DNA of 64,000 nucleotides from the NCBI GenBank assembly GCA_977017645.1, contig OZ360242.1:19964001-20028000 (forward strand), in the 5' to 3' direction. A program made the position numbers and the translations under genes. Source of the stretch: Torpedo marmorata. Its lineage: Eukaryota. Positions within the stretch are counted from its first letter, which is position 1. Each line of letters starts with the position of its first letter. The notes below the pieces were generated by a model that worked only from the letters and a program-made list of their open reading frames with translations, did not search any database and had not been told where the DNA came from. Shown piece by piece: positions 14,722-62,959 of the stretch.

Positions 14722-15400
14722 TGAAGATTCCTTTATTGTCATGTAATAGTACAGAAAATGTAATATTACATGAAATTGCTTTCTGCCTGCTGTAAGAGAG
14801 AGAGTGTCCCCTCAGAGTCATTGAATGTTGATTCGCCTCCAGAGCTCCCGCAGCCTCTGCAGCTGCAGATTCCTGTTCGATTCATCAGCAACCCGAGCTC
14901 CAGATCCAGTCCGCTGACATGATCAGGAAGCCTTCAGTGCCCAAGGTCCTTCAGGAACCCCTTTTGCCCTCAGCAACCTCTCGAATCCCAGCTCCGATAC
15001 CTGGCTCCCATGAGCCAGTCTCCAACAACCGCAGCCCATGCGCATCCACCGGCCGCAAGTCGCCCGCAGCCTGGGTAGGACTCTCAGCCGCTGAGCCCCT
15101 CGCTGGTTCACCGCCGTGGTCACCGTCCTGCAGTGTCATCTCCTCTGCTTCTCCTTCTCAATAGGGGGGTTTTCTTCCCGTTTCTGGTGCCCTGCGCTGG
15201 TCCGCTGCTCCCCCGGAGTCTGCATCCCCTCGTGGCCGCTGCCAATCACTGACACCACCATCTTGGGCACCGACCCCGCAGTTGCAGGATTTTATTGGCT
15301 CCTTTAACAGGGCGTTTAAAGCCTGTACGGAGTCGCCGGCATTAGGACCGGGCGGTTGAACCCTTTGGAGCAGCGCTGTGTCTCCAAAATCCGCTCATTT
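14722..15400 (-). mobile_element. Same non-autonomous retroposon
   Basis: AAGATTCCTTTATTGTCATG start plus the shared internal blocks. Confidence 0.75.
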
Positions 15401-15549: not shown

Positions 15550-17580
15550 CATTGGCCCTTTAGAAGTGAAGACTGAGAAGAAATAAATTTTAAGGATTCT
15601 AATCTATTTGGATTGAGCTGGATTGGATAACACAGAGGGCATTAAAAACAGTCTAAAAATAATAATCAAGGGGATTAATGGAGGGAGAAACAAAACAATC
15701 TCCATCACTGAACAAAAATTACCAAGCAAAAGAATGATGCTAAAGACCAACCAGTCCCCTGGACCTGTTTACATGCATCCTAGGGTATTAAAGGAAGGGA
15801 CTGCGAGATAGTGGTGAGTTGATGGTCATTTCCATAATCCCCTGGATTCTGGAGGCCCCTGGGAAATGAAAAACTGAAAATGTAATTAAAAACACACAGT
15901 AAATGCTGGAGGAACTCAGCCGGTCTTGCAGCATCCATAGAAGGTAAAGATATATTACTGACATTTCGGGCCTGAGCCCTTCTTCAAGCTATACCTTGTC
16001 ATATCTTGAAGAAGGGCTCAGGACTGAAACATCAGTAATATATCTTTACCTCCTATGGAAGCGGCGAAACCAGCATTTACTGTGTGTTTTTACTACAATC
16101 ACAGCGTCTGCAGACTTCCGTCTTTCACTCCTTAACTGAAAACGTAAAACATTTATTTAAGAGTAGAGTAAGTCATAAAGCAGGAAACTGTAGGAAAGTC
16201 AAACATATGTCAATAGAAAATACTAGAAACATTATTAAAGAGATAATAGCAGGATGTTTACAAAAATCACAAGGCAATCAAGAAGAGTCAGTGTGATTTT
16301 ATAAACGGGAAACAGTGTTTTTCAGTCTACTAATAGGAGAGCAAGTAGATGTGAAGCATTTGCATTTGATAAGGTACCACCTGAAATGTCACCATATAAG
16401 AGCGCAATGGGACAACATTTTGGTATCAATCATGGAAAACAGTGTCAGAATAATGGCACACTTTCATAATGGCAATCAGGTGCCATTATGAAAGGATCAG
16501 TAAGGAGGCCTCAACTATTCATATTCCATTATTATTAATGACTTGGATGAAGGAGTAAGTGTAGTATAGGCAGTTTGTGATAATACAAAATTAAGTAGGT
16601 TATCACGTTGAGAGAAGAGACCAATGAGCCTGCAATGGGATATAAATAAGTGCAGTGAGTGGTGTATAATGTGGAAAATGTGAGTTTATCTACTTTAAAG
16701 TAAAAAAAATTATTTAAGTAACTACAAAATACCGTGCATTTTTTTCTTGAACTATGCTAACTGAATATTTATTATCCATCTATCTTTTGTATTTATTATC
16801 ACTTTTTAATTTAATTTAGTTTAATGTATTCAAACTAAGTACCGTTCAGCAGCAGCAAGTAATAATTTTGGTGCATATGTATATTGCACAATGTATATTA
16901 CAATAAACTAATTAATTATCATTGTAAGTATATTTAGGTCTCCCAGTACATGATATAAAATAACAGTATGAAGGCACAGCATGTAAGATAATGTAAGGAA
17001 GATAATGGATTGTTGAATTTTATTGCAAGGATTATAGAGTATAATAGCATGCAAGTTTGGATGCAGCTTTACAAGCTGCAATGCAACCAAACCTGGGACA
17101 CTGCATACAGTTTAGTTCACCATTTTAAGGAATAATATGATTGCATTGAAGACAATACTGAAAATGTTCAGTTAGTTGATTCTTGTGATAAAAGGCAGAG
17201 CCTTTCCTGATTAGAGTTCAGATAAGAAATGAAGGGTGTGTGTGTGTGTGTGTGTTGGGGTGGGGGAATTTATATGATTTATGCCAAGAGTTTTTCGCTT
17301 AGTGGAGGTATTAAGAAGTTGGAAGAATTGTTTCAGAACAAAGATGTCACCATTTAAAACAAATAAATGGAATTTCACTGAGGGTTATAAATCTCTGAAA
17401 TCCTCTACCCGAGACAGCTGTGGAGGCTGATTGATTGAATACATTCAAGAGGGAGATCAACAGATTAAACTACAAGTACGTCGAGGGGAATGGGAAGAGA
17501 ATGGGAACATGCTGTTGGAGACAGGTTGGATTATCCTGAACTTTATTGAATGCCTTGTGCTGACTAGTCTACCACATGTC
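15550..17580 (+). mobile_element. Long degraded CR1-clade LINE with nested insertions
   Basis: SPGP..MHPRVLKE, INDLDEG and 3' end remnants. Confidence 0.65.
15886..16133. mobile_element. Palindromic Penelope terminal-repeat dimer, second subfamily
   Basis: Inverted arms around CTTCTTCAAG...CTTGAAGAAG. 14 bp TSD AACTGAAAA(T/C)GTAA at 15872-15885 and 16134-16147. Confidence 0.8.
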
Positions 17581-22741: not shown

Positions 22742-22935
22742 GGGGGCGGCACGGTTCGCCAGCGCCAGCGATCGGGACCGGGGTTCTAATCCCGCGCTGT
22801 CTGTAAGGAGTTTGTACGTTCTCCCTGTGTCTCCGTGGGTTTTCCCCGGGGGTCTCCGGTTTCCTCCCACCGTTCAAAACGTACCGGGGGTTGTAGGTTA
22901 ATGGGGTGTAAATTGGGCCGTATGTCTAAAAAAAA
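22742..22935 (+). mobile_element. tRNA-derived V-SINE
   Basis: GGGGCGGCACGGTT...CTGTAAGGAGTTTGTACGTTCTCCC...CTCCGGTTTCCTCCCAC. Confidence 0.8.
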
Positions 22936-25099: not shown

Positions 25100-25870
25100 A
25101 GATTCAAGATTCAAGATTCCTTTATGCAATAGTACAGAACAAGTAATATTATACGAAATTGCCTTCTGCCTGCCGTAAGGCAGACAAACAGACGCCATTA
25201 GTGTTGCCCGGTGCCCCTTACAATATGAGAGAAAGAGAAGCAAAAGAGAGTCCCTTCAGAGACACTAAGTGTTCGTTGATTCGCCTCCAGCGCCCCCGCA
25301 GCCTCTGCAGTCGCACAGACTCCTGTTCGATTCATCAGCAACCCGAGCTCCAGATCCAAACCTCCGACACGATCAAGAAGCCTTCAATGCCCGAGGCCCT
25401 TCGGGAGCACTTCTTCCCCTTGGCACCCTCTCAAATCCCGGCTCCGATACTTGGTTCCAATGAGCCAGCCTCCAGCAGGCCGCAGTCCGTGTGGGTCCCC
25501 CGTCCACAAGTCGCCCACAGCCGCTGAGCCAATCGCTGGTGCGCTGCCGTGGTCACTGTACCTGTAGGGTCACCTTACATGCTTTTCCTTCTCAATGGTG
25601 GGGGGTGGGGGGGGGGTTGTTCTCCCCTTTTCTGCTGCCCTGCACCAGTTCACTGTTCCCTGGAGACTGCAACCCTCGAGGCCGCTGCCAAGCACAGGCA
25701 CTGCTATCTTGGGCACAGACCTGTGGTTGCAGGATTTTAGTTCAAAAACACCATTGGCTCTTCTAACATTCTGTTTAACGCCTTTACGGAGTCGCCAGCA
25801 TTTGGACCATGCGGTTGAACCCTTTGGAGCAGTGGGGCGTCAGCACTGCCATTACAACGGCTCTCTCAAT
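25100..25870 (-). mobile_element. Same non-autonomous retroposon
   Basis: AGATTCAAGATTCAAGATTCCTTTAT start; TCTGCCTGCCGTAAGGCAGAC; shared internal blocks. Confidence 0.8.
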
Positions 25871-26734: not shown

Positions 26735-26976
26735 TTTTAATTTACAATAAGGTAGAAGCCAATTCTGGCCAATTGAGACCCATGCCGCCCAATTACACCC
26801 AATTAACCTACAATCCCATATGTCTCGGAGGGTGGAAGGAAACCGAAGCACCCAGGGAAAACCCACGCTGGCGATGGGGAGAACATACAAACACCTTACA
26901 GACAGTGCCGGATTCGAACCCGGGGCGCAGGCGCTGAAATAGTGTCACGCTAACTGTTACACTGACCGTGCCGCCT
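26735..26976 (-). mobile_element. tRNA-derived V-SINE
   Basis: Reverse copy with GGTTCGAATCC and V-domain. Confidence 0.8.
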
Positions 26977-27051: not shown

Positions 27052-28410
27052 TCTTTCCTGGACCCACCACATGTTGTGTTTGGAAAGTATCAGGTTCGGT
27101 GGGTTCACAGAGAGACGAGTCTGGACACAAGTGTTACAATCAAAGGTAACTTTATTGAAAACACAGGAGACAAACAGGGGAAGATGTCAAATGATACTTA
27201 ATTACTCTGCCATGAAACAACTATATAGATATTCACATCGGACCCAGGTTGGACTCCAATACCAGTGGCCGCCTATCTTCTACACACTCCCGCACATGTA
27301 CACACTTCACAGACAGGGACTTTCAAACACACTCCCGATTCCCTGTACAAACGGGGGTGCGGCTCTCTGCAAGCACTGATCTATCTCAGTACTATGGCTC
27401 AACTTAAGTGTAATGCACACCTTACCCGCGACTCCTCCAGCGATGTCCACAGTATCGACCTGGCATGGAGTGATGTCCGGGACTTGGACCAAGAGGCAGA
27501 GAGAAAGAAATGTGTCATGCATCGATGTTTTATTCTGTTCTGAGCTGGGCGTCTGGTCATGATGACAATGAGTTATTTAAATGAGCCAACAGTACGGTGT
27601 GCACTAATAGGTGGCTGGAGTCCAACCTTGGTTGGCAGGTGATGTGACTTCCAAATAAGTTTCAGACAGGGAGGTCACGTGACCATCTGCAATCCACAAT
27701 GTTCCAGACAGACAGGGAGGCCACGTGCTCCTCCACAATCCACATATAACAACACACTAATGGCATCGTGAAGAAAGCACGTCAGCACCTCTACTTCCTC
27801 AGAATTTTGCGGAGGTTCGGTATGACATCGGAAACCCTGGCAAATTTCTACAAATCTGTGGTGGAAAGTTTGTTGCCTGGTTGCATCATGGTCTGGAATG
27901 GAATCACCAATACCCCTGAGTGGAAAGCCCTGCAAAAGGTAGTGGACACAGCTCAGGACATCACAGGCAAAACCCTCCCCACCATCGAGAACATTAACAG
28001 GGAACGCTGCTGTCATAGTGCAGCAGCAATCATAAAGGATCCACACCATCCAGAATACGCTTTGTTCTCACTGCTACCATCAGAATATGTGATAAAAGAC
28101 TCACACCACCAGGTTCAGGAACAGCTGCTACCCCTCCACCATCAGACTCCTCAACAATAAACTCAATCAGATACTCATTTAAGGAGTCTTACTTTTGCAC
28201 TTTATTGATTTTTTTCTCTCTCTGTATTGCACAGTTTGTTTACATTTCTTTATTTATTTATGTGAATACGTATCTTCTTGAATCCAGTTTTTTGCACTAC
28301 CAATAAGTGGTAATTCTGCCTCGCCCGCAGGAAGAAGAATCTCAGGGTTGTACGAGATGTCATGTATGTACTCTGACAATAAATCTGAACTTTGAACTTT
28401 GCACTTTGAA
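27052..28410 (+). mobile_element. Rex1-clade LINE 3' fragment interrupted by a solo LTR
   Basis: CTTTCCTGGACCCA at 27052 resumes at 27752 (ACACACTAATGGCATCG); ORF 27768..28160; tail (GAACTTT)n. Confidence 0.85.
27072..27751. mobile_element. Probable solo LTR (about 680 bp)
   Basis: Termini TGTTG...TAACA, flanked by ccaca/acaca (5 bp TSD, 1 mismatch). It splits a Rex1 copy cleanly. AATAAA on the minus strand near 27150. Confidence 0.7.
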
Positions 28411-32109: not shown

Positions 32110-32980
32110 AGGATAACTGTCTTATGAAGCAAGGTTGACCTTTTTGGAGTGACAAAGGATGAGCAGAGACTTAATAGAGGTAAAAACACAAATGCTGGAG
32201 AAGCTCAGCAGGTCAAACAGTGTCCTTTATGTAGCAAAGGTAGAAATACATAACCGACGTTTTGGGCTTGAGCCCTTCATCAAAGTATGAGAAAATACCG
32301 GCAGGCGTCCGAACAAAAGAGTGAGGGGGGGGGAAGGGGGTGGCAAAGGCAGGAGATGATAGGTGGAGAAAGGAGGGAGGGGACAGCAGCAATGAGGGGG
32401 GAGGAGGGATGGCTGGGTGGGTGGAAAAACTGGAAGGACAGGGAAGGGGGGAGGGGAAGGAAAAGGTGAGCAGGTTTAGTGGAAAGCAGAAAAGTCAATG
32501 TTCATGCCATCTGGCTGGAGAGTGCCAACACGGAAAATAAGGTGTTGTCCTCCAATTTGCAGGTGGTCTGGGTGGGATAGTACATAAGGCCATGGACAGA
32601 CATGTGAGTGTGGGAGTGTGACTTGGAATTGAAATGGTTGGCTACTGGGAGGGCGCTGTTGTTGCAGACAGAGAGGAGGTGCTCAGCGAAGCGATCTCCC
32701 AATCTATGACCGGTCTCTCCGATGTAGAGAATGTCACATTAGAGGTAAGAGAGGTATATAAGATTATGAGGGGCTTAGATAGGGTGGACAGCCAGTACCT
32801 TTTTCCCAGGGCGACAATAGCATCTGTTTAAGGTGAGTGGAGGAATGTTTAGGGGATATTTATATATATATTTTACGCAGAGTAGTAGGTGCCTGGAATG
32901 CATTGCTGGGGTTATGGTAGAGGGTGGTACAATTGGGGACATTGAAAGGATCTGTTCTGTGCTGTATCGTTCTAAGTTCT
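32110..32980 (+). mobile_element. CR1 3' fragment split by Penelope
   Basis: DLIE | EVYKIMRGLDRVDSQYLFPR. Confidence 0.75.
32183..32738 (-). mobile_element. Penelope-like element 3' fragment (GIY-YIG C-terminus plus terminal repeat)
   Basis: GDRFAEHLLSV...LPVANHFNS..HSHTHMSVHGL...KLE, followed by the TTGATGAAGGGCTCAAGCCC terminal repeat. Flanked by TAGAGGTA repeats inside a CR1 copy. Confidence 0.85.
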
Positions 32981-34491: not shown

Positions 34492-34965
34492 ACACACACA
34501 CACACACAGACAGATACACACTCACAGATAATACACACACACAGATATACACACACACAGATATACACACACACAGATATATACACACAGATATATACAC
34601 ACACACAGATATATACACACACACAGGTAAACACGAAAATCTGTAGACACCGTGGTTAGAGTAAAAAACACAAATGCTGGAGAAACTCAGCAGGTCAAAC
34701 AGTGTCTTTTATGTAGCAAAGGAAGAAATACATAACCGACGTTTCGGGCTTGAGCCCTTCATCAAAGTGTTGAAGAAGGGCTCAAGCCCGAAACGTCGGT
34801 TATGTATTTCTTCCTTTGCTACATAAAAGACACTGTTTGACCTGCTGAGTTTCTCCAGCATTTGTGTTTTTTACTATACACACACACAGATACACACACA
34901 GATATACACACAGATATACACACACAGATATACACAGATACACACACAGATATATACACACACGC
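34492..34965. repeat. (AC)n/ACAGAT(AT) compound microsatellite split by the Penelope palindrome
   Basis: Visible directly at 34492-34626 and 34877-34965. Confidence 0.9.
34628..34876. mobile_element. Palindromic Penelope terminal-repeat dimer
   Basis: About 100 bp essentially perfect inverted arms (about 34660-34760 and 34775-34875), inserted in an (AC)n/ACAGAT microsatellite. Confidence 0.85.
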
Positions 34966-35509: not shown

Positions 35510-35679
35510 GTTAACACGAAAATCTGTAGACACCGTGGTTGAAGTAAAAAACACAAATGCATTTTCTCATACTTTGATGAAGGGCTCAAGCCTGAAACGT
35601 CGGTTATGTATTTCTACCTTTGCTACATAAAAGACACTGTTTGACCTGCTGAGTTTCTCCAGCTTTTGTGTTTTTTATT
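35510..35679. mobile_element. Short inverted Penelope terminal-repeat insertion
   Basis: 15 bp TSD TATAACAATTCAAGA at 35495-35509 and 35680-35694; contains TTGATGAAGGGCTCAAGCCTGAAACGTC. Confidence 0.85.
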
Positions 35680-38600
35680 TATAACAATTCAAGACGATGA
35701 CATCGAACTTGGAATTGTTTTTGGACACAGGTAAAGTGCGGGAGCGCGCTCGATCTTCAGACGTGTGATGAAGTGTGGACGGGTGGGGTCGGGGTTTGGA
35801 TGTGCAGACTTTCGTGTTTCTCTTGGATTCTTTAATGATGTGTTGACTCCGCATCAAATCGGAAAGCAGCAGAGCCCAATTCACTGTGACATTGGCCAGT
35901 CCCCTTGCTGTTTCAACAAAGTTCTATGCTTTAATTTCAGGACCGCACTTTGAAGTTGTTAATGATTATCCTGCAACTGTTTTTCAAATAAACAGGAATC
36001 GGAGACGCTTTAGATGTCCCGTGGTTTTCCATATTAGTTTTGTAACCACAGGTGGCACATTTACACTTTATCACCCTTCCATGGTACGTGGAAGTGAAGC
36101 TCTATGCTTTGTTCAATGGCTTCTAACAGGCCTGTTTTATTGCCTGCGCTGAGTACTTTTTTGTTTAGTTAGTGTCTCAGGGTGGGGTATTTTTCAGCAA
36201 AATAATTACAAGGAACCCCCTTTCTCACTTTCACTGGCATTTCCGCCGAGCCCAATGTTTACTTCTCTTATTCCGCCTGCCCTCCGCTCACCAAACTCCT
36301 CCCATCTTACCCACTCCCCTGCTGCCACCCCAGGCTCCAACTTACCGAGATGGCCAACCCAACATCATCCCCTCCCCCTACTCCGAGGCAAGATCAGTTC
36401 CACCCGCCTTCCCTCTTGCCGACTCTGACTCACCGACTCCCTCGGATCCCAGAACACCTGGTCGACAGAACTTTGGACCATTGATTAAGAATTCAGGATT
36501 TGGCCCCGACTACGAAAACTGCAAGCGTTTACATAAGGTCTGGCATTTGCAAGGGAGGTGGGTAGGGCAATGGTAGCCACGAATCCACCGTTCTGTTGTG
36601 AAAACTGTTTAGTTCTCTAATGCCCTACAGAAAAAGAAATCTGCCATTCCCCTCAGATCTGGAGATATAAGATTCCAGCCCCAATAATGTGGTAGACACT
36701 TGACTGTTCTTCAGTTCAGGGACAGTTCCGGTTGTAGATTGGATGTCAACATCCTGTGAGCCAATTTGACATACACACACACACAGATATAGTGTGTATG
36801 TATGTATGTATATATATAAACAATTATGTTTGTAAACTAGACCACATTCTAGAGCTGATTGAACACTAGCGTCTGGAACAAGACTAGTCAATAGTGGAAG
36901 CATTGAGCAGGTCAAGCACCAGCTGTGGAATGAGAAACAGTGGTAATGACCCTTCCAGTGGATATAGGCTCTTGACATCATAATGCAGGTGAGTCACCCA
37001 TCCCATCAGAAATATGTGCCTTAATCTGAGAATCAAAGTGTATGGAAATATAAAATATTTGTGAGATAAAAAAATACCAACATTACTTGATGCAATGATT
37101 CCAGGACCTGTCACAAATGGAGCCAGGTGAACAGAGAGGAGAGTGGATGCATGAGGATATCAGTGGTGATTGAATGAAGACAGGAGAGAACGAGTTAGAG
37201 GTTAGGAGGCAGGAATCTCTGAAGCAGGAGAAATACTGTACATTTTATGAAGATGGAAAACTGAGGAAAGAGATGGGAAAAGGATAGATAATGCAAGAGT
37301 GGAAAAGTTATGTGTGTTATGTCTGTATGTGTGTGTGTACTGTTTTGCACCGTGGACTGGAAAACGCTGTTTCGTCGGGTTATACTGCTACAATCGGATG
37401 ATAAATAAACTTAAACTTGGAAAAGAAAATTTGAAAAGGGGGCCAAGAAGATTCAGGGGGGTTAGTAAATTCTGGTCATAATGAAAAAGGCACCATTGGC
37501 AACAATGATAACAGCTTTACTTTCATTGGACAGTTCAGCATCAAATTCTAAACTCTTGGTAATGAGTTATGGAGTGGTCTCTTTCAGGAGGAACACTGTC
37601 AAATTTTGAAGAGATGTGAGAAATAGGTCAATAGGCAAATAGTTAATGTAACGACAGCTGATTGATTGAAAAGTGAGAGGAAAAGTGTTTAAATAAATTG
37701 ACAGTAAGCTTTGCAGACAAAAAATCTTTGCATGGGAAGAGAAGAGAGATAATCTATGGAATAATAATCTGTTAGTGGGTTGTAGAAATGCTGAACTTTG
37801 ATTAAAATTTTGCCAGTGAGAGAACAGTAGGGTTAGGACAACAGAGATCGTTGGGGGCCAAGAAAGTGTGCTTCTGCTCTTCAACGTAATTTTGAATACC
37901 TGAAAGTTAGCCTGTGAATTGTGCACCGGACATATTAAGTTGTGAGCAACAAAGGGGCTGATCTGATGGAGATAGAATTATGGATATTCCCATCCTTGCA
38001 TTAAATATGTAAATTGGTTATGTAAGAAAGTATAAACTGATTATCTACTAATTGGTAATATACCTGTTTATATATTATTACGCTTTAACTGATTGGGGCA
38101 GAGCAGGGCACATGATCTTAAACAACATAAGACCAGGAACAGATGGGATGCTAGACAGTTCTTTGCTGGAGAACAATGAACTTACAGGATACATTACCAC
38201 TTAGTATGGAAGCTGCTAACTCTTTTGTGTCATTTAAAGAAGGTGCTGGTACAGGAGTAGCTCAATGCAGTGATTTATTACATGGGAGGTAAGTGGCTTT
38301 ATTTATAATACATGGTCCATGTGATCTTTTGTATTGATGAGGAGGGCAGGGTTTTTCATAGTAGCTTTTCATCACTTTATTTTTATCTTTTCCAGGCTGC
38401 AGGGTAATGATAAGAATTGTTTTGGTAGACTTTAAATTGTTTTGGTCGACTTTGCCAATAGCAGGGAAGGTTCAACAGATCAAATGGTCGTTTTTTGGCC
38501 CATCAAAATTCTGTTGTCATAATAATCTCTATGCTCTCATGCTACTTTCAAAGTTCTCCCTAGAGCATTTGTCAAATATGGCAGTCTATGATGTCTCGGC

Positions 38601-38987: not shown

Positions 38988-41900
38988 GTCGTTCGTCCAT
39001 CGTTGTTGATGAAGACCTCGACACCATTAGTCACTTTAAGATTGGATGCGGTGTGTCCAAAGATGACTGGTCAAGCCAATTCGGGCACGGAATGTCCTGG
39101 CACTTGTTGGGCAGACGTGTGTAGGCACTGCAGTTGTTGCGCTGATGTCTCTGGACTTGCGCAGCTCGCGCTTATGATGTGCTTCAGCAGTGCGCCTTGC
39201 TTCGTAAACTTGACAGCTCATGTGGATAAGGCCGCGCCAGGTAGGGCGGTTTTGTGCCAGCGACTTCAGGGAGACCTTTAGTGTGGCTTTGTAACATTTC
39301 TTCTGCCCTCCACGTGAGCGTCTACCAGCAGAGAATTCCCCAAAAAGGAGCTGCTTGGGTATGCGCTCATCCGGCATACGGATGACGTGACCTGCCCACC
39401 GGGTCTGTGCTCTCATCAGCAGTGTGTGGACTGATGGTAGACTTTCTCTAGAGAGAACTTCAGTGTCTGGTACTTTGTCTTGCCATCTGATGCCTAATAT
39501 TCTGCAAAGACAAGTCATGTGAAAATGGTTGAGCTGTCTTGCATGCCTTCGATACACAGTCCACGTTTCACAGGCATACAGAAGGGTAGTGAGTACCACG
39601 GCTCTGTAGACCTTCAGTTTTGTTGCTGGACTGATTCCTCGACATTCCCACACAGTGGAACGCAGCCGTCCGAAAGCAGAACTTGCCTTTGCTATTCTGC
39701 AGTTAACTTCTGTATCAATAGTCAATGCTCGGGAGAGGGTGCTGCCAAGGTAAGTGAACTTGTCCACTGCCTGTAGTTTCTGCCCTTTGATTGTGATTTT
39801 GGGTTCTGTGTACGGAGCATGAGGAGCAGGCTGGTACATGACTTCAGTCTTTTTAATGTTGATGGTGAGTCCAAAGTTGACACAAGTCGTGGAGAATTTG
39901 TCCATACTGACTTGCATCTCTGGCTCTGAGCCAGCATACAGGGCGCAGTCATCGGCAAAGAGGAAGTTTCTCAGAACAGTCTCCTTCACTTTGGTAATAG
40001 CTTGAAGTTTCCCATCCACTCTGTACTTGAGGCTGATTCCAGCATCACTGTCCTGGAAGGCATCATTCAGCATGGCAGTAAACGTCATGCTGAACAGTGT
40101 GGGTGCAAGAACACAGCCCTGCTTGACGCCGTTGGTGACTGGGAATGCCTTAGAGGATTCTCCACTGTCCAGCACTCTGGCCATCATGCCATCATGGAAC
40201 TGGCATACCATCTGAATGAATTTGGCAGGGTAGCCAAACTTTGACATGATCCTCCACAGGCCTTGTCAGCTGAGGTCAACAAAGGTTTGTAGAGTTCGCG
40301 ATTCTGCTCCTGACACTTCTCCTGAAGTTGGCGCACAGCAAAAATCATGTCCATAGTCCCACGACCTTTGCGGAAGTCACACTGTGACTCTAGCAGCAGG
40401 CCCAGCTCCAGATGAGTGACCAGACGATTTAGCAGGACTCTTGCAAGGGTTTTTCCTGCGATGGAAAGCAGCGAGATACCTCGGTGATTGTCACATACTT
40501 GTCGATTGCCCTTCCTCTTGTAGAGGTGTACGATGGATGCACCTTTAAGTTCCTGAGGAATGGATCCTTGCGTCCAAAAAGACTGGAACAACTTAGTGAG
40601 CTTCTCTATAAGTACCAGACCACCGGCTTTGTAGATCTCTGCAGGTATGGCGTCTTCCCCTGGGAATTTGCCACTGGATAGCTGGCTGACAGCTTTCGTG
40701 ACTTCGGCTACTACCGGTGGGTCATCCATGGCGCTGTTGATGTCCACCTGGGGAATCCTGTTTATCGCCTCATCGTTGATAGATGACGGTCGGTTGAGGA
40801 CGGCTTCAAAGTGTTCAGCCCATCAATGCAGGATCTGAGCCTTCTCTGTAATGAGAGTTGTACCATCTGTACTCAGGAGGGGGGAACTCCCGAGAGACTG
40901 AGGTCCGTAGAGAGTGTTGAGGGCTTCGTAGAACCGTTTCAAGTCGTTTCTGTCAGCATATCCCAGTATTTCATCTGTCTTGGCGCTCAGCCAGGCATCT
41001 TGCATTTTACGCAGTTTATTCTGGACTGTCCTGCGAACACTGGTGAAGGCATTTTTCTAGGCAGCTGATGATGATGGTCACTATCTCGGAGGATCTTTCC
41101 TGGACCCAACACACGAATGGCATCGTGAAGAAAGCACGTCAGCGTCTCTACTTCCTCAGGAGCTTGCAGAGGTTTGGTATGACACCAAAAACCCTGGCAA
41201 ATTTCTACAGATGTGTGGTGGAAAGTGTGCTGACCGGCTGCATCATGGTCTGGTATGGGAACACCAATACCCCTGAGCGTAAAGCCCTCCAAAAGGTAGT
41301 GGACACAGCCCAGGACATCACAGGCAAACCCCTCCCCACTATTGAGCACATCTACAGGGAACACTGCCGTCAGAGGGCAGCAGCAATCATCAAAGACCCA
41401 CACCACCCAGCACACGCTCTGTTCTTGCTGCTGCTATCAGGAAAGAGGTATAGGTGCCACAAGACTCACACCACCAGGTTTAGGAACAGCTGCTACCCCT
41501 CTACCATCAGAATCCTCAATGACAAAGTCAAATCAGAGACTCATTTAAGGACTCTTACTCGTGCACTTTATTGATTTTTCTTTGCTCTCTCTGTATTGCA
41601 CAGTCAGTTTCATTTTCAGTTTCATTCATTACCTGTTAGCAGTTATTTTGATTGTTTACATGTTTACGCTGTGTACAGTTTACTTTTTGCACTACCAATT
41701 AGTGGTAATTCTGCCGCGCCCAAAGGAAAAAAGAATCTCAGGGTTGTATGTGACGTCATGTATCTACTCTGACAATAAATCTGAAATCTGATCTGAAATC
41801 TGATGGGCACAATGAAGGCGGTGCTTTTCAACAAGTAGAGCCTGTATCTCCTCATCATTCTCATCGAACCAGTTATGCTGCTTGCGGGTAGAGGGCCCTA

Positions 41901-50379: not shown

Positions 50380-51585
50380 CTGTCCACATTGATGGTATGG
50401 AGGTGGAGGGTGTTATAACCCTCAAGTTCCTGGAGGTCCATATTTCAGAAGACCTCTCCTGGAGCCAGCACATCATGGCAATCATGAAGAAGGAGCACCA
50501 ATGTCTCTACTTTCTAAGGAGTCTGAGGAGATTTGGCATGCTCTTGAATATTCCATCAAACTTCTACCAGTCCACTATGGAACGTACACTGGCAGGTTGC
50601 AGCACAGCCATGTTTGTGGATTTGACTGCCCAGAAACACAGAATACTCCAGAAGGAAACAAATACAGCCAGATCCATTACAGGCTCTGACCTGGTCCTCC
50701 ATCACCCTAGTCACAAGCTCTTCTCACTGCTACCTTCACCTCTAGGTTTCCAACAGCTATCAGGCTTCTGAACTCCCTTTATTACACTAATCAGTAAAAA
50801 ACACAAATGCTGGAGAAACTCAGCAGGTCAAATAGTGTATTTTATGTAGCAAAGGTAGAAATACATAACCGACGTTTCGGGCTTGAGCCATTCATCAAAG
50901 TATGAGAAAATGCCGGCAGGCGTCCGAACAAAAGAGTGAGGGGGGAAGGGGGATGGCAAAGGCAGGAGATGATAGGTGGAGAAAGGAGGGAGGGGACAGC
51001 AGCAAAGAGGGGGAGGAGGGATGGCTAGGTAGCTGGAGAAAAACAGGAAGGACAGGTGAGGGGGGAGGGGAAGGGAACGACAAGCAGGTTTAGTGGAAAG
51101 CAGAAAAGTCAATGTTAATGCCATCTGGCTGGAGAGTGCCGAGACGGAATATGAGATGTTGTTCCTCCAATTTGCGGGTAGTCTGGGTGGGATAGTACAT
51201 GAGGCCATGGACAGACATGTGAGTGATTGCGGGTAGTCTGGGTGGGATGTATTTCTACCTTTGCTACATAAAAGACACTGTTTGACCTGCTGAGTTTCTC
51301 CAGCATTTGTGTTTTTTACTTCAACCACGGTGTCCACAGATTTTCGTGTTTTACTTCATTACACTATGCTATTGCCAAGCTACCTTTTTGCACTGTGAAT
51401 ATTTATCATCTATTTTTTTGTGTTTATTGACACTTTTAAATTCAATTAAGTATACCATTGTAGCTGCATTTTTTAGTTGTTTTTCTGTTTTTTTTCACAA
51501 AGTGTTTAGCAGCAGCAAGCAAGAACTTTAAGGCATGTGTGTATGATGTACAATGTATATGACAATAAACTCATTATCATTATCA
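50380..51585 (+). mobile_element. Diverged Rex1-clade LINE 3' fragment interrupted by Penelope
   Basis: KFLEVHISEDLSWSQH...LYFLRSLRRFGM. The 3' UTR resumes after 51357 and ends TGACAATAAACTCATTATCATTATCAT. Confidence 0.7.
50790..51357 (-). mobile_element. Penelope-like element fragment with inverted terminal segment
   Basis: Nearly identical to 32183-32600, plus an inverted copy of the terminal repeat (about 51248-51350). TSD ATTACACTA at 50781-50789 and 51358-51366. Confidence 0.85.
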
Positions 51586-51864
51586 TGCAGATTATCTGAC
51601 AAACCAACCTGTTTCTCTCCCTGACCATTGGCAACCTCTTTACATTATCTTCCCTTTTGTCATTAATCTCTCCTACATTCCAACATGAAAGTATCTTTTG
51701 TTACTTCATTCACATCTTTCTTTCTTTCAATTTGAAGATGAAAAGACATTCATCTGAAACTATGTTTCTCTCTCCACGGATGCTGCCTGACCTGCTGAGG
51801 ATCTCTGGTATTTTCTGTTTTTATATTAATCTCAACTAATTCAACTAACATTTACTGTAGCATC

Positions 51865-52650
51865 CCTTTACTTTGTGACGTGTTTGAGGAGATTCGGTAT
51901 GTCACCGAAGACTCTCGAAAACCTCTACAGGTGTACCGTGGAGAGCATTCTGGCTGGTTGCATCACTGTCTGGTATGGAGGTGCCAATGCTCAGGAAAAT
52001 AAAAATCTCCAGAGGGTTGTTAACTCGGCCTCAGACATCACGGGCACCGGACTTCACTCCATTGAGGACATCTACATGAGGCGGTGTCTTAAAAAATCAG
52101 CCTCTATCCTCAAAGCCCCCCACCACCCAGGCCATGCCCTCTTCACTCTGCTTCCATTGGGAAAAAGATACAGGAGCCTAAAGACGAGCACTCAACGGCA
52201 CAAGGACAGCTTCTTCCCTGCTGCCATCAGATTCCTGAATAATCAATGAACCAAAGACACTGCCTTGCTTTTCGTGCACTATTATTTATAATTTTTTATA
52301 GTAATGTCGTAAGATGGTTAATATGAATGTTAATTGCACTGTGATGCTGCCGCAAAACACCGAATTTCACGACTTGTTCATGACAATAAATTCTGATTCT
52401 GATCCTCAAGGACCCTCACCACTCAGGCCATGCCCTCTTCACTCTGCTACCACTGGGGAAAAAGGTACAGGAGCCTAAAGACGAGAATTCCAGGGCACAA
52501 GGACAGCTTCTTCCCCGCTGCTACCAGATTCCTGAATGACTTTGACTTTTCATGCACTATTTTTATTTATTTTTGTAAGGTGGTTTATATGAATGTTTGC
52601 ACTGTGATGCTGATGCAAAACAACGAATTTCATGACCTGTTCATGACAAT
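51865..52650 (+). mobile_element. Two tandem Rex1-clade 3' fragments
   Basis: ORF 51875..52249 (LRRFGMSPKTL..YRCTVESILAGCITVWYG) with tail AATAAATTCTGATTCTG at about 52400. A second copy of the 3' end follows directly (about 52402-52650). Confidence 0.85.
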
Positions 52651-52910
52651 AGCGGCATGGTTAACGTAGCAGTTAGAGCAATGCTATTAAAGCACCAGCG
52701 ATCGGGACCGGAGTTCGAATCCCACGCTGTCTGTTAGGAGTTTGTACGTTCTCCCCGTGTCTACGTGGGTTTCCTCCGGGAGCTCCGGTTTCCTCCCACC
52801 ATTCGAAACGTACTGGGGGTTGTCGGTCAATTGGGTGTAATTGGGCGGTACGGGCTAGTGGGCCGAAATGGTCTGTTACCGTGCTGTATATCTAAATTTA
52901 AATTTAAAAT
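52651..52910 (+). mobile_element. tRNA-derived V-SINE inserted in a Rex1 tail
   Basis: GCGGCATGGTTAACGTAG...GAGTTCGAATCC...V-domain...(AAATTT)n. The Rex1 tail AATAAATTCTGATTC resumes afterwards. Confidence 0.85.
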
Positions 52911-54344
52911 GTAATAAATTCTGATTCCCAGGCTATGAGTTGTTTATGCCCAATGTACAAGTGGCTAATTACTACAGAACTTGTTGCAACATACTTCAAA
53001 TATCTTTTTTCTGTAACTGACAAAAAAATCCTAGTCACTCGGATAGATTCTGAACAGCTTAAAAGAGGAGAAAGATGGAGATGTGAAAGTTTTAAGGAGG
53101 GGATTTGGGTCTGGGGTCTTAAGGCTGGATGTCTTAAAGTGAAGAGCAGAATGAAGGGAGCAGGGGATTCAGAAGAAGTCAGATTTGGAAGAGTGTCAAG
53201 TTGTTTTTGGGTTGTACAATTAGGTATTTCAGTGCTGCTGCCTGAGGAGTTTAGTGCTCTGAGAGTTAATGGCTATCAAAGCTGTGTTAGAATCATCCTG
53301 GACAGTTCTTTTACTGTTACAGACCAAACACTTCGAACATACACAGAAGTGTAAAATTTCATGCAATTTCCAAAGTTGTCCTTTGCAACGCCTGCAAAAC
53401 AGCATCTCTTTGATGTAGTTAAAGACATACATTCAGATGTCCTTATTAAGTTGGAGCACCACATCTCATCTCATTCCTGACCCAAGAGGCTCAGTCAAAC
53501 TGTTGCTACTTCCAACAGCTAAAGAGGCACCAATGTTATCCAACATCTAACGACTGGCAGTTGGCAAATCGGACCCACAGATACTGAAAAATTAAAGTGT
53601 GCCATTTATAAGCATACTTCAACCAATTGAACTGCAGGCAATAATATATCTGAGAATGGGGCCACTTGTATGGGAAAAGGGAGAGGGAGGTTGGGACAGC
53701 TACTTGGTCGGCAGGTATAAACAACCTCTCCGAGTCACTGTCCTCATCTGAATTCCATGCACATAGCGATCCCAGTGGTTCTGCCCCCTTGTTCAAGTCC
53801 CATTATGGAAGCTGGAGAATTTAACTTCCTGTCACCAAATAAAAGTGTACTTAAAGCTAATTTCTGTCACATTGACTGTGAAAGAATAGATTGTTGTAAA
53901 AAATAACCCTCAGGCTTACTAATGTCCTTCTGAGAGAGAATCTGTGATCTTTACTTGGTGTACTCTAGCCTGTACGGTTAGCTATCAAATGTCTCCTTAG
54001 TTGAGAGGTAACTAGAAAGTTACAATAAAAATGCCATCTTTGCTAATGAGATTCACATCCTCTGAGTGAATGAATAGAATGCAAACAAGAATGGCAGATA
54101 CATCAGATTCCTGGTTTCCCACTTTTGACTCATTCCTCTTTAGTAACACACACAGCCTGACTGTAATGATCCTACCTGACTAAAAGAGTAATGGCCAGTG
54201 GTCAAACCCAGGATGTTCTTCTGTAACGCTGACCATTATTTCACATGGTGACTAAAGCTATCCTTCCAGTATGCCTGGAATATCACCCACAAGGCACGTT
54301 GTCTCCGAGGCGATTGTGGTGGAGTGGAGACAGTCTCCTACCTC

Positions 54345-55389: not shown

Positions 55390-56244
55390 AAAATGGCAGC
55401 GCTGCCGGAGCTGCTGTAACGGCAGCGCTGCCGCTGGTGCGGAACCGCGGAGAGCGGGGAGCAGAAACATAGCACTCCCCCTTGAGGTCCAAACGCACAG
55501 TCCGACTGCCGTTGGCTCCATACAGGCTATAAATGGCCTGTTAAAGGAGCCGACAGTGGTTTATTTTAAAATCCTGCGACCGAGGGGTCTGGACCCAAGA
55601 TGGTGGCGCCTATGCTCGGCAGCAGCCTCGAGAAGTTGCTGACTCCGGAGAAGCAGATAACTCGTGCAGCGCACCAGAAAACGGGAAGACCACCTCCCAT
55701 TTCAGAAGGAGAAACATGAGGAGACAACCCACGGGACGGTGACCACGGTGGCAGACCAGCGAGGGGCTCTGAGGCTGAAGAACACACAGACAGCCGGACT
55801 GTTGGTGACTCGAGGCGAGGAACCCACGCAGGCTGTGGGCCGCTGGCGACTGCGGTCAAGGAACTCGCACCAGGCTGGGGACTACTGGAGACTGGCTCGA
55901 GACTGGCTGAAGGGGTACCAGGTATCGGAACTGAGATGCGAGAGGGTGCCAAGGGCGCTGAGGGCTTCCTGATCGTGTCAGAGGTTTGGATCTGGACCAT
56001 GGGTTGCCAATGGTTTGGACTGAAGGCTGTGTGGCTGCGGAGGCTGTGGGAGCGCTGGAGGCGAATCCATGGACACTCAGTGACTTTGGGGGGACTCTTT
56101 TGCTTCTCTTTCTCTGACTGTAAGGGGCGCCGTGCAATTTCTGCTGATGGAGAATCTTTGCTGCCTTACGGCAGACTAAAGGAAATTTTGTGTTATATTG
56201 CATTTTCTGCTTTAATACATGACAATAAAAGAATCTTGAATCTT
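55390..56244 (+). mobile_element. Non-autonomous ~0.85 kb GC-rich retroposon with Rex1-type tail (longest copy)
   Basis: Homologous to three other copies in the window. Contains CCAAGATGGTGGCGCC, the 3' hairpin CTGCC-TTAC-GGCAG and TGACAATAAAA(GAATCTT)n. No conserved ORF across copies. Confidence 0.8.
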
Positions 56245-58519: not shown

Positions 58520-59440
58520 GACTGGCAAGTTTGAGTAATAAGGAGAGATTAGATCGGCTGGAACTAATTTTCAGGAATGAAGGAGGCTGAGGAGTGACCT
58601 TAGAATCAGAATTAGAATTTATTGTCATGAACATGTCACGAAATTTGTTGTTTTGCGGCAGCATTGCAGTGCAAATCTTGCTATAAAATTACGTATAAAA
58701 AGAAACAAATTAGTGCAAAAATAAGACAATGTGAGTTAGTGTCTGTGGTTCATTGTCCATTCAGAAATCTGATGGCGGAGGGGAAGAAGCTGTCCTTGTG
58801 GCACTGGGTGCTCGTCTTCAGGCTCCTGTACCTCCTTCCTGATGGTAGCAATGTGAAGAGGGCATGGCCTGGGTGGTGGGGACCCTTGTGGATATAGGCT
58901 GCTTTCTTAAGACACCGCCTCTTGTAGATATCCTCGATGGAGTGAAGACTGATACCCATGGTGGCGCTGGCCGAACTCACAACTCTCTGTAGTTTTTCTT
59001 GACCTGTGCATTAGCACCTCCATACCTGACAGTGATGGAACCAGTCAGAATGCTCTCCACGGTACACCTGTAGAAATTTGCAAGTCTTACAGAAGTTTAT
59101 AAAATCATAAGGGGCATGGATAAGATGAATGGTCACAATCTTATTTCCAGGGGAGGGGAGTCTAAATGTAGAGGACAGAGGTTTAAAATGAGAGGGGAAA
59201 GATTTGAAGGAGCAAATTTTTCACCACAGAGATAGGAATGAGCTGCCAGAGGAAATAATAGAGGCAAAAAAACCCAATTACAATGTTGAAAAGACATTTG
59301 GAGGAGTACATGTATAGGAAAGGTTCAGCCGGATATGGGCCCATCATGGGCAAAGGAAATTCACTCAGGAAGCTACAAGCTACTCGCTGATTGGCTACAA
59401 GTGGGATGAAGGGTCTGTTTTTGTGCTGTAGAACTCTATT
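58520..59440 (+). mobile_element. CR1 3' fragment split by Rex1
   Basis: GGCTGAGGAGTGACCTTA | CAGAAGTTTATAAAATCAT...CTGCCAGAGGAA. Confidence 0.7.
58602..59085 (-). mobile_element. Rex1-clade 3' fragment nested in CR1
   Basis: LHSIEDIYKRRCLKKAA...HHPGHALFTLLPSGRRYRSL; tail on + reads AGAATCAGAATTAGAATTTATTGTCATG. Confidence 0.85.
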
Positions 59441-60232: not shown

Positions 60233-61042
60233 CCAACTAAAATTCTATTCCCCCTTAACTTTATTGTACATGATTGATAAAATCCAATCATCAATAACAA
60301 AATCTCTCTGAGAATTTACTGAATTTAAGTGGAGCTCATAACATACAATCCCTACAACTTTATTTTAATTAGTTCATGGGTGGGCTGTACTGTCACAAAA
60401 TAAAGCAAGAAACCATATAATGTCAAGTAGACTAGACCATACTCACCTCAGAATTGTGCATCTAATCCTACTCATTATTAGGCACAGATGTTCAATGCAA
60501 ATTGAAACATTTTCATATGCGTTCTGACAGGAGAAAGATTTATCTTCTGAAAGGGCCTGATAAATTATGTTAATTTCTGATTTATCTCTCCATTCCTTGC
60601 CAAAGCTTTAGTCAGTCTTGAGGGTGTCTGGTACAATACGACCTCAGGTTTTGTATGGTGGCCAAAATAGAGCATCACTAAGTATAATTACCCCCTGTGA
60701 AACCTCTCAGATCAGTCAAATAAAGGACACATCATCACTCCCTTTCTCTTACTTGAACCTTTCCCACTCTCTTCAATACACGTTGAAGGTGCACTGGTGA
60801 AGTTCATCTGACTGAGCCAGCAGTTCTTTCTATTTTGTCTACCAAGTTCCGGCTCAAAAACCAGCTGTCATTTGGCTTTGGTGGAAGATGGTTGAAATTT
60901 GAAATGTTATTATTGCAAATTAGAGCATTTCTGACGTGCTGAATATAATCAATTCCATATAAACATATGTAGCAAGAAGGAAGAAAAATATTTGGGGTAT
61001 TTCATGACCTTTAAAGATACAAAAGCATTTCATAGCCAATGA

Positions 61043-61180
61043 AGTAAAAACACATAGAAATGCTGGAGGAACTCAGCCGGTCTCCTCCCCCTGCCATCCT
61101 TCTGTCTTTATTCAGATGCCTTCCTGTTTTTTGCTTATACTTTGAAGAAGGGCTCAGGCCCGAAATATCGGTAATATAAG
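61043..61180. mobile_element. Short inverted Penelope terminal-repeat fragment
   Basis: AAATGCTGGAGGAACTCAGCCGGTC joined to TTGAAGAAGGGCTCAGGCCCGAAA. Confidence 0.7.
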
Positions 61181-61339
61181 AAAGCTCTACGCCCATGGCA
61201 AATTAAGTACTTTAAAAAAATTTAGTCACCATAGATGGAAAGAAAATATTTCCTTTGGTGTTTAGCTCTTTTCCTCAAAATACTGTGAATGATCTCAAGC
61301 TTGAGATTAATTTATTTTTAATTTATATTTTTAAAATTT

Positions 61340-62595
61340 AGAATCAGAATTTATTGTCATGAACATGTCATGAAATTTGTTTTTTTGCGGCAAATATTGC
61401 TATAAAATTACATTGAAAAAATAAATAAATTAGTGAAAAAATAAGAGAAAGTGAGGTTGTGTCTGTGGTTCATTGTCTGTTCAGAAATCTGATGGCAGAG
61501 GGGAAGAAGCTATCCTTGTGCCGCTGGGTGTTCGTCCTCAGGCTACTGTACCTCCTTCCCAACAGTAAAGGTAAAGGTAAAGGTTCCATTATTGTCATGT
61601 AATACTACATTTTAGAATGTAGCATACATGAAATTCTTTAATTTTTGTCTACCGTAAGGCAGACAGAGGGTCGCTCACAGAAACCTACAGCACCTAGTGT
61701 TCCTTGGCGGTCTCCCCTCCAAGTACTGACCAGTCCTGTGCCTGCTTAGCTCCCGAGATCAGACAATCCCAGTCGTATTCAGGCTATTGGTGTACTGTGA
61801 AGTGGGCATGGCCTGGGTGGTGAGGATCCTTGAGGATAGAGGCTGCTTTAAGACACTGCCTCTTGTAGATGTGCTCGATGGAGTGGACACTGATGTGATG
61901 GCCCTGGCTGAATTCAGAACTCTCTGTAGTTTTATCTTGTCCTGTGTATTGGCACCTCCATACCAGACAGCGATGCAACCAGTCAGAATGCTCTCCACGG
62001 TAAACCTGTAGAAATTTACAAGTCTTTGGTGACATACCAAATCTCCTCAAACTTGTCACGAAGTATAGCCACTGGCGAGCCTTCTTCGTGATTGCATCAA
62101 CATTGAGGCCCCAGGACAGATTCTCAAAGGTGTTGACACCCATGAACTTGAAGCTCTTAACCCTTTCCACTGCAGACCCCTCGATGAAGACGGGTTCATC
62201 TTCTCCTGATTTCCCCTTCCTGAAGTCCACAATCAGCTCCTTGGTTTTGCTAATGTTGAGTGCAAGATTGTTGTTGTGGCACCACTCAACTAGATGATCT
62301 ATCTCCCTCCTATACGCTACCTCATTGCTGTCTGTGATTCCGCCAATGACCGTGGTGTCATCGGCAAATTTGGAGATGCCATTTGAATTGTGCCTAGCCA
62401 CACAATCGTGGGTGTATAGCTCGTCGAGCAGTGGGCTAAGCACGCCTGTGTTGAGGTGCGCCTGTGTTGATCGTCAATGAGGAGAAGACGTTGTGGTCTT
62501 CCGATGAGGAAGTCAAGGATCCAGTTGCAGAGGGGGATGCAGAGGCCCAGGTTTTGGAGCTTGTTGACCAGCACTGAGGGTATGATGGTGTTGAA
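61340..62595 (-). mobile_element. Rex1-clade LINE fragment with RT core, interrupted by a 5S-derived SINE
   Basis: [48 protein letters not shown]. Confidence 0.9.
61565..61790 (-). mobile_element. 5S rRNA-derived SINE (SINE3-type) with Rex1-type tail
   Basis: Minus strand reads AGCCTGAATACG...GTCTGATCTCGGGAGCTAAGCAGG...CTGGTCAGTACTTGGAGGGGAGACCGCC...GGTGCTGTAGGTTT, a diverged 5S rRNA with box A and box C. It is followed by a hairpin, TACATGACAATAA and (CCTTTA)n. Confidence 0.85.
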
Positions 62596-62959
62596 AGGTT
62601 ATTTAGACATACAGCACAGTAACAGGACCTACTGGCCCATGAGCCCGTGCTACCCAAATACCCCAATTAAACTACAACCCCCATATGTTTTAGCTAAGGA
62701 TTTCAGGTTATGAATTGAAGGCTGACAAAAGTAGTTTAAATTACAGATCAGCAATCATCAGACTCAGTGATCAAAAAGGCCCAAGAACCTGACTGGACGA
62801 CTCCTGTTCTCATACTTTGAAGGGAGATATAGCAGTGAATGAGCACAATTAGGTCAGCAGAAAGTTCACTTTGTTTGGGAATTATCGGCACGGGCTCGTG
62901 GACTGGAAGGGCCTGATACCGTGCTGTAGGCCTAAATTTGAAAATTTAAAACTGAAACA

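What the first reader, a model, noticed from the sequence alone, without database searches (positions are those of the whole stretch)
61565..61790. 5S rRNA-derived SINE with a Rex1-type 3' end
Seen: about 105 nt of diverged 5S rRNA with Pol III type-1 promoter boxes, joined with almost no body to the hairpin TGTCTGCC-TTAC-GGTAGACA, then TACATGACAATAA and (CCTTTA)n. It is inserted inside a Rex1 copy. Known: SINE3 families are rare, and the zebrafish SINE3 has a CR1/L2-type tail. Inference: a compact SINE3 mobilised by a Rex1/Babar-clade partner, possibly undescribed in this lineage.
Basis: partly seen in the sequence, partly recalled or inferred. Interest (0 to 1): 0.7.

Follow-up and report, generated by a model that had tools for sequence, protein, structure and literature searches.

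The report
Ribosomal-RNA-derived jumping repeat in rays
A short, very abundant mobile element, most likely of rays, uses a piece of the 5S ribosomal RNA gene as its promoter and borrows the tail of a Rex1 retrotransposon to be copied; this pairing appears not to be described for cartilaginous fish, though the repeat databases could not be checked.

Summary
On the minus strand, 61791-61565 is a 227-nt insert inside a truncated Rex1 LINE. It consists of a 110-nt 5S rRNA-derived head with promoter boxes, a 98-nt two-hairpin tail and (CCTTTA)3. It is not a one-off chimera. In contigs of 4 of 4 public runs (4 organisms), head and tail lie at about 10^3-10^5 times single-contig depth. Contigs read across the head-tail junction, and head and tail carry lineage-specific variants together. 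The tail has the terminal layout of the window's Rex1 copies. By sequence, however, it matches a non-coding 670-850-nt family (4 copies in the window), not the host Rex1. The autonomous partner was not found. This copy is decayed, with an 18-nt deletion. Best reading: a body-less SINE3 family of (probably) rays, mobilised in trans by a Rex1 LINE. Ten literature searches found no cartilaginous-fish SINE3. Repbase, Dfam and SINEBase could not be searched. Salmon OS-SINE1 may be a precedent for 5S plus a Rex1-type tail; its partner's clade is unresolved.

The parts
61565..61791 (-). Whole SINE copy, 227 nt (224 nt if the last three letters are counted to the host)
   Evidence: Boundaries from empty-site comparison and empty-form joints in 4 of 4 runs
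61682..61791 (-). 5S rRNA-derived head, 110 nt, about 10 nt shorter than 5S upstream of box A; first 9 nt pair 8 of 9 with the 3' strand of helix I
   Evidence: Rfam RF00001, 33 bits, model 1-120; pairing count
61741..61751 (-). Box A of the type-1 Pol III internal promoter (about model position 51)
   Evidence: Located; position against the Rfam model; box definitions recalled
61729..61733 (-). Intermediate element (about model position 69)
   Evidence: box definitions recalled
61709..61721 (-). Box C (about model position 81)
   Evidence: matches conserved Rfam positions; box definitions recalled
61584..61681 (-). LINE-type 3' tail joined directly to the 5S end; this copy lacks about 18 nt at 61675/61676 that other copies carry
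   Evidence: blastn of the 56-kb non-coding copy hits 61683-61580, 67% over 107 nt, E 2e-5; loose end at 61675 in 138 X1 contigs
61646..61665 (-). Tail hairpin 1 (8-bp stem, TTAC loop)
61595..61631 (-). Tail hairpin 2 (long stem, CTAA loop), closed by the TGACAATAA motif at 61597-61589
61565..61583 (-). Terminal (CCTTTA)3C repeat; last 3 nt overlap the host sequence
   Evidence: bin 61564-61589 is deep in all 4 runs
61792..62598 (-). Host Rex1, 5'-truncated, upstream piece (end of RT, frameshifted)
   Evidence: Pfam RVT_1 E 4e-6 and ALKBH8_N E 0.002, both below curated cut-offs; homologues
61340..61564 (-). Host Rex1, downstream piece with its own 3' end (TGACAATAAA + TTCTGA repeats)
   Evidence: 84% to the copy at 58608-58839
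55390..56241 (+). Longest of 4 GC-rich non-coding copies that share the SINE's tail (others 9213-10023, 14720-15385, 25106-25860, all minus strand)
   Evidence: no tblastn hit with 4 Rex1-type proteins

Best explanation
The insert is one decayed copy of a high-copy SINE3 family with no middle body: a 5S rRNA-derived head fused directly to the last ~115 nt of a Rex1-type element. SHOWN: the anatomy, the insertion into a Rex1 copy, the abundance of head and tail in four organisms, and lineage-specific variants. INFERRED from known SINE biology: (1) TFIIIA/TFIIIC bind boxes A, IE and C, and Pol III transcribes the element and runs on to the next T-run in flanking DNA (61441 for this copy). (2) The reverse transcriptase of an autonomous Rex1 recognises the two hairpins and the terminal motif. 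(3) It primes at a nick through a short overlap with the terminal repeat and integrates the cDNA without a target-site duplication. The family probably arose by a template switch from the RNA of a Rex1 (or of its non-coding derivative) onto 5S rRNA. It then spread in several bursts, at least one of them in the lineage closest to this genome. The host is a cartilaginous fish, probably a ray (inference).
For: (751 nt laid on 4 runs; 140,297 records laid). Flank bins 61200-61303 have depth 0-12.6. The three inner head bins average 1.93 million (X1), 0.89 million (X2), 96,000 (X3) and 2,800 (X10). That is about 120,000, 47,000, 12,000 and 780 times the median depth of the 8 listed pieces per run; the tool warns this is not a copy number, so it is an order of magnitude only. 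Tail bins are of the same order as head bins in each run. Tail-side contigs in X1 (138) run on through about 18 extra letters into the head's 3' end. One X2 contig spans 61611-61751. The share of depth differing from the window copy is 0.06/36/42/49% at head site 61734, 0.17/89/67/75% at head site 61739 and 3.6/97/94/98% at tail site 61642 (X1/X2/X3/X10). Head and tail therefore changed and multiplied together, and the head is not the conserved 5S gene. The insert's 5' boundary, set from the host alignment, coincides with Rfam model position 1. The element strand has no run of 4 T. The terminal layout (A-rich stretch, AATTTC/AATCTC, stem-loop, TGACAATAA, short tandem repeat) also ends 6 RT-bearing Rex1 copies in the window. 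Rex1 identity: 19 of 33 full-length-range homologues of the host RT carry the N-terminal motif that I read by hand from published ray Rex1 consensus 5' ends; the other 14 lack it, most starting further downstream. The best homologue is from a sawfish (63%). Rays have the highest Rex1 coverage in a 2026 survey (PMC13343379).
Against: No autonomous LINE with this exact tail was found. Similarity to RT-bearing Rex1 tails is weak: scores 22-28, background 95th percentile 28 and 99th percentile 37. Only 1 of the 32 listed pieces (142,465 in all) bridges the junction with 31 or more letters on both sides, and depth dips at 61673 (4,787 in X1), which I explain by the deletion. The Rfam score is below the gathering threshold. 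Absence of a T4 run is weak evidence: 41% of shuffles also lack one. Covariation in the hairpins is not shown: 3 of 24 pairs have a two-sided change and the covariation term is unfavourable at +2.52 with 5 sequences. The family's own 5' end was not seen. No second head lies in the 64-kb window. Transcription was not tested.
Confidence: 0.8

Rival explanations
1. A real SINE3 family, but its tail comes from another CR1-group LINE (L2, Crack, Daphne, Zenon) that merely has a similar AATAA-type end.
For: The tail is not significantly closer to the host family than chance (z 0.4-1.3) and only weakly closer to the other Rex1-type tails (z 2.0-3.3). The partner was not seen.
Against: Of 15 near-matches to the terminal motif in the window, 6 end RT-bearing Rex1 copies, 3 end the non-coding family, 1 is this element, 2 end a third similar tail without shown RT, and 3 look like chance. 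The non-coding family that shares the tail carries the AAGATGG(C/T)(G/A)GC motif (2 of 4 copies), which resembles the start of several published Rex1 consensus sequences.
Confidence: 0.1
2. The 5S segment is an internal module of a longer element (a dimeric SINE or a Pol II-transcribed non-autonomous LINE), and this copy is 5'-truncated at the head.
For: The head is about 10 nt short upstream of box A. Two X10 contigs stop aligning at 61788 and carry 111-123 further letters that I could not see.
Against: The insert begins exactly at Rfam model position 1, and its first 9 nt pair 8 of 9 as helix I. A random truncation would rarely stop there.
Confidence: 0.07
3. A one-off chimera: a 5S retropseudogene joined once to a LINE tail by template switching.
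For: There is only one copy in 64 kb. No copy was found in metagenome, prokaryote, viral or plasmid collections, which are not eukaryotic genome sets.
Against: Depth, junction-crossing contigs and linked lineage-specific variants in 4 of 4 runs. At four sites 80-100% of X1 depth shares one base that differs from this copy, as expected for a decayed member of a family.
Confidence: 0.03

Closest known systems
SINE3-1 of zebrafish / AmnSINE1 (5S-headed DeuSINEs; Kapitonov & Jurka 2003; Nishihara 2006, seen through PMC3747384 Table 1 and PMC4824008 passages)
   Same: 5S-derived head with a type-1 Pol III promoter; LINE-derived 3' tail; vertebrate host.
   Different: Those have a ~330-bp Deu body and a CR1-4_DR/L2-type tail. 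This element leaves no room for a body (tail homology begins at the 5S end) and has a Rex1-type end.
OS-SINE1 of salmonids (5S + Deu + RSg-1 tail; PMC3747384 Table 1, PMC3272025 passage)
   Same: 5S head in a fish SINE with a short LINE tail. If RSg-1 is a Rex1/Babar element, as I half recall, it is the precedent for a 5S SINE on Rex1 machinery.
   Different: Has the Deu body and is a teleost element. The clade of RSg-1 was not stated in anything I could read.
SINE2-5_NV / Rex1-24_NV of the sea anemone (PMC3747384 Table 1; alignment in the PMC3472496 supplement)
   Same: The only SINE listed there with a partner named Rex1.
   Different: tRNA head, cnidarian host, different tail sequence.
Cartilaginous-fish SINEs HE1, SacSINE1, CmiSINEs/SINEX-1_CM (PMC3747384, PMC5499810 passages)
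   Same: Same host class; stringent-type LINE tails.
   Different: All have tRNA heads with V, Deu or CORE bodies and CR1/L2 tails.
Ped-1, 5S-Sauria, HaSE3, MEG-RL/RS (PMC10946416 Table 2; PMC3747384; PMC5786205)
   Same: Independently born 5S-headed SINEs.
   Different: Ped-1 and HaSE3 have RTE/BovB-type tails; all occur in mammals, lizards or insects. None is listed for cartilaginous fish.
5S retropseudogenes and one-off 5S chimeras (class distinguished from SINEs in PMC3531059; tailless class seen only in a search listing, PMC5322556)
   Same: Retroposed 5S-derived sequence.
   Different: Here the head carries family-wide and lineage-specific changes, a fixed tail and high abundance.

Membership tests
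SINE3 (SINE criteria of SINEBase, PMC3531059) | Short (<1 kb), non-coding, interspersed rather than tandem | tested here: met
   227 nt, inserted alone inside a Rex1 copy. Dispersion of the other copies was not seen directly.
SINE3 (SINE criteria of SINEBase, PMC3531059) | [quoted passage not shown] | tested here: met
   Head depth about 780 to 120,000 times single-contig depth in 4 of 4 runs. A proxy from other organisms' contigs, not a count in this genome.
SINE3 (SINE criteria of SINEBase, PMC3531059) | At least 60% identity to 5S rRNA over at least 60 nt | tested here: inconclusive
   Rfam hit over the whole model, E 4e-5, but 33 bits against a gathering score of 38. No real 5S gene could be fetched. 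By recall about 85% over the 3' 80 nt, which is not a tool result.
SINE3 (SINE criteria of SINEBase, PMC3531059) | Distinct from a 5S pseudogene: extra sequence and family-wide diagnostic changes | tested here: met
   Fixed tail; variants at 61734 and 61739 nearly fixed in X1 and different in X2, X3, X10.
SINE3 (SINE criteria of SINEBase, PMC3531059) | Boxes A, IE and C present; no internal Pol III terminator | tested here: met
   Boxes at about model positions 51, 69, 81; longest T-run is 3. Box definitions recalled.
SINE3 (SINE criteria of SINEBase, PMC3531059) | Transcribed by Pol III | not testable with these tools
   No RNA run was laid.
DeuSINE (SINE3-1, AmnSINE1, OS-SINE1) | Central Deu domain | tested here: not met
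   Tail homology starts at 61683, directly at the 5S end; there is no space for a body.
SINE mobilised by Rex1 | 3' end identical or near-identical to an autonomous Rex1 | tested here: inconclusive
   Layout and terminal motif shared, sequence scores weak. Published ray Rex1 consensus 3' ends were cut off in the supplement.
SINE mobilised by Rex1 | 3' stem-loop plus short tandem repeat, as in stringent LINE/SINE pairs | tested here: met
   Two hairpins, z -5.05; (CCTTTA)3; covariation not shown.
Rex1 (host element) | RT of the Rex1 superfamily | tested here: met
   Indirect: 19 of 33 long homologues share the N-terminal motif of published Rex1 consensus sequences. No phylogeny was built, and no homologue is named Rex1 by its source.
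Any family catalogued in Repbase, Dfam or SINEBase | Sequence match to a catalogued consensus | not testable with these tools
   These databases are not held; the SINEBase supplement was not readable.

The most novel reading that the evidence does not exclude
An undescribed, body-less SINE3 family of rays with up to ~10^5 copies. It would be the first 5S-headed SINE reported from cartilaginous fish and the simplest SINE known on Rex1 machinery. It would have been born when a 5S head replaced the Pol II front of an ORF-less, 670-850-nt non-autonomous Rex1 derivative that is itself undescribed; PMC5786205 lists only RTE, Ingi, Vingi and R2 as producing such derivatives. Its lineage-specific bursts would give insertion markers for ray phylogeny and a minimal ~115-nt test substrate for how Rex1 recognises its RNA.
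Probability: 0.4. Interest if true: 0.65.

Novelty: new variant of a known kind. Interest (0 to 1): 0.5.

Why it matters
5S-headed SINEs are rare: 2.3% of SINEBase per PMC10946416, whose table lists only salmon and zebrafish families for fish. A 2020 paper says vertebrate SINE3 families are moved by the CR1 clade (PMC7245038), although Rex1 belongs to the wider CR1 group in Repbase's scheme (PMC13343379). A head-plus-tail SINE3 at high copy number would add a head-partner combination, show that Rex1 supports SINEs in the lineage where Rex1 is most abundant, and delimit the RNA signal that Rex1 needs. It is a repeat-biology result, not a new mechanism.

Tried and rejected
No whole genome is held for this window, so no direct copy count was possible. 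Pattern scans for head+tail or tail found only chance matches: metagenomes 5 loci and prokaryote genomes 4 loci, none similar beyond the pattern; viral contigs 0 and 0; plasmids no match. No RNA holder was listed among 16 runs, which is no evidence on expression; I laid 4 of the 16 runs. No tRNA in the window, so no tRNA-5S dimer here. Rfam microRNA hits in the window are hairpin or repeat artefacts below their gathering scores. The host Rex1 as partner was rejected on tail scores. A target-site duplication was sought and not found. Absence of T4 was judged weak. The published ray Rex1 consensus set could not be compared at the 3' end because cells were cut at 400 nt. The clade of RSg-1 was not resolved; PMC3242629 is not held. 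Earlier scan findings by sequence, place and words gave no copy of this element.

Full report
Observation. On the minus strand the stretch 61791-61565 reads as a 5S-like head, a short linker, two hairpins, the motif TGACAATAA and (CCTTTA)3C. Rfam RF00001 matches 61791-61682 over model positions 1-120 at 33 bits (gathering score 38), with E 0.0063 on the whole window and 4e-5 on 401 nt. It is the only 5S hit and no second head exists in the window. Boxes A, IE and C lie at 61751-61741, 61733-61729 and 61721-61709, about model positions 51, 69 and 81 (box definitions recalled). The head is about 10 nt short upstream of box A. Its first 9 nt pair 8 of 9 with the 3' strand of helix I, which favours a start at 5S position 1 plus a short deletion over a 5' truncation; this is inference. 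The tail folds into two hairpins, z -5.05, 0 of 200 shuffles as good. The first hairpin pattern has 6 matches in the window against 0.06 expected.

Insertion. The flanks are the two halves of one 5'-truncated LINE copy (62598-61792 and 61564-61340), 84-87% identical to the copy at 58608-59088. Aligned with six other Rex1 copies, and letter for letter with the three of the same family, the host closes up without loss when 61791-61568 is removed. There is no target-site duplication; the last three letters of the terminal repeat could also belong to the host. Contigs of all four runs show the empty form (joints 61559 or 61562 to 61796). These are paralogous copies, not the orthologous site.

Host identity. 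The host RT piece hits Pfam RVT_1 and ALKBH8_N, both below the curated cut-offs; two of the three other window copies scanned pass the ALKBH8_N cut-off (5 stretches scanned). Its best homologue among 1,028 is a sawfish protein at 63%, so the genome is a cartilaginous fish, probably a ray (inference). No homologue is named Rex1 by its source. Of 33 homologues of 800-1,100 aa among the 120 listed, 11 carry a strict and 8 a loose form of the N-terminal motif that I read by hand from Rex1 consensus 5' ends in the supplement of PMC13343379; 14 lack it. [quoted passage not shown]

Copy number, the decisive test. No genome is held. I laid 4 of 16 listed runs, from four organisms, on 61200-61950 at 80% likeness. 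Flank bins up to 61303 have depth 0-12.6. The three inner head bins average 1.93 million, 0.89 million, 96,000 and 2,800. Divided by the median depth of the 8 listed pieces per run, that gives about 120,000, 47,000, 12,000 and 780. The tool states that summed depth is not a copy number, and it drops human-like records, so these are orders of magnitude only. Tail and terminal-repeat bins are of the same order. Depth dips at 61673 (4,787, 404, 670, 43). The reason is visible: 138 X1 contigs leave the tail side at 61675 and continue with about 18 letters absent from this copy, then with the head's 3' end (consensus agreement 0.66, median loose length 14). One X2 contig spans 61611-61751; it is the only one of 32 listed pieces, out of 142,465, that bridges with 31 or more letters on each side. 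Two head sites (61734, 61739) and one tail site (61642) match the window in at least 96% of X1 depth but differ in 36-98% of depth in the other three organisms. Head and tail therefore multiplied as a unit, with a subfamily typical of the lineage nearest this genome, and the head is not the host's conserved 5S gene. At 61598, 61622, 61696 and 61752, 80-100% of X1 depth differs from this copy, so this copy is decayed.

The tail. The window's Rex1 copies end in an A-rich stretch, AATTTC or AATCTC, a stem-loop, TGACAATAAA and a short tandem repeat; the SINE has the same layout. By sequence, however, it scores 22-25 against the host family, 26-28 against a second RT-bearing family and 30-33 against a third tail type, with window background at 28 (95th percentile) and 37 (99th). 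Against the three copies of a GC-rich non-coding family scored there it reaches 58-77 (z 14-19). That family has four copies of 666-852 nt with clustered 5' ends and no hit to Rex1 proteins. Its homology to the SINE begins at 61683, at the very end of the 5S part. So the SINE has no body of its own, and its partner is a Rex1-type LINE that is not in the window. Covariation across five tails is not shown.

Mechanism. Shown: anatomy, insertion, abundance, linked variants. Inferred from known stringent LINE/SINE pairs (PMC3747384, PMC5135761 passages): Pol III transcription from the internal promoter, read-through to the first T-run in the flank (61441 here), recognition of the hairpins by the partner's RT, and priming at the terminal repeat. 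Confidence is 0.8 overall: about 0.95 for a multi-copy head-tail unit and about 0.85 for a Rex1 partner.

Comparison with print. Ten searches of the open-access library listed no paper describing a 5S-derived SINE in sharks or rays; I saw the top 4-30 listings of each. I read passages, not whole texts, of PMC3747384 (with Table 1), PMC7245038, PMC5499810, PMC5381603, PMC3531059, PMC4824008, PMC10886601, PMC5786205, PMC10946416 (with Table 2), PMC6274825, PMC3272025, PMC13343379, PMC5135761, PMC3472496 and bioRxiv 10.64898/2026.10.27.761883. I also read parts of the supplements of PMC13343379 (cells cut at 400 nt) and PMC3472496 (one file not searched). Listed shark and ray SINEs are all tRNA-headed. 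The only SINE listed with a partner named Rex1 is the anemone SINE2-5_NV. Salmon OS-SINE1 has a 5S head, a Deu body and an RSg-1 tail. I half recall RSg-1 being a Rex1/Babar element but found no statement of it; if so, the head-partner pairing has a precedent. The SINEBase table, the preprint's supplements, Repbase and Dfam could not be seen and may already hold this family, at least as an automatic repeat model.

Verdict. New variant of a known kind; interest 0.5.

Noticed in passing
window 9213-10023(-), 14720-15385(-), 25106-25860(-), 55390-56241(+): Four copies of a GC-rich (55-60%), non-coding family that shares the SINE's tail but ends in (GAATCTT)n-type repeats. The 5' ends cluster within about 100 nt and two copies carry an AAGATGG(C/T)(G/A)GC motif like Rex1 5' ends. 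Candidate ORF-less non-autonomous Rex1; PMC5786205 lists only RTE, Ingi, Vingi and R2 as making these. It could instead be a long 3' UTR of the partner.
   Followed up: partly
window 61660-61683, with the loose-end consensus at 61675: By eye, the family's linker resembles the first ~28 nt of the published consensus HypSab_Rex1-6. If real, the SINE would hold both a Rex1 5' and a Rex1 3' piece. It is GC-rich and untested, and may be chance.
   Followed up: no
window 61749-61772 (-): In the head, the stretch upstream of box A is predicted to fold as an 8-bp hairpin where the Rfam alignment opens an 11-nt gap; possibly a family-specific refolding of 5S helix III.
   Followed up: no
window 2754-3576, 27750-28398, 41077-41797 (+); 51866-52400, 52402-52651 (+), 58608-59088 (-); 16844-16922, 51504-51586 (+): At least three Rex1-type tail families coexist in the window, all ending in TGACAATAAA-like motifs with different hairpins; 52402-52651 is a second 3' fragment directly behind 51866-52400.
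   Followed up: partly
window 32175-32610, 34627-34875, 35510-35680, 50793-51351: A young repeat (91-98% identity between copies) occurs several times, partly as inverted pairs next to dinucleotide runs; a shorter, older relative lies at 15879-16051 and 61038-61178.
   Followed up: no
window 343-580, 1083-1305, 22760-22924, 26736-26975, 52652-52916, 62599-62690: Several copies of another LINE-type 3' end (CR1-like by recall); one abuts the 5' end of the host Rex1 at 62599.
   Followed up: no
protein P0020: A Rex1-type RT fragment is filed under Escherichia coli on a 1.1-kb contig, probably fish DNA contaminating a bacterial record.
   Followed up: no
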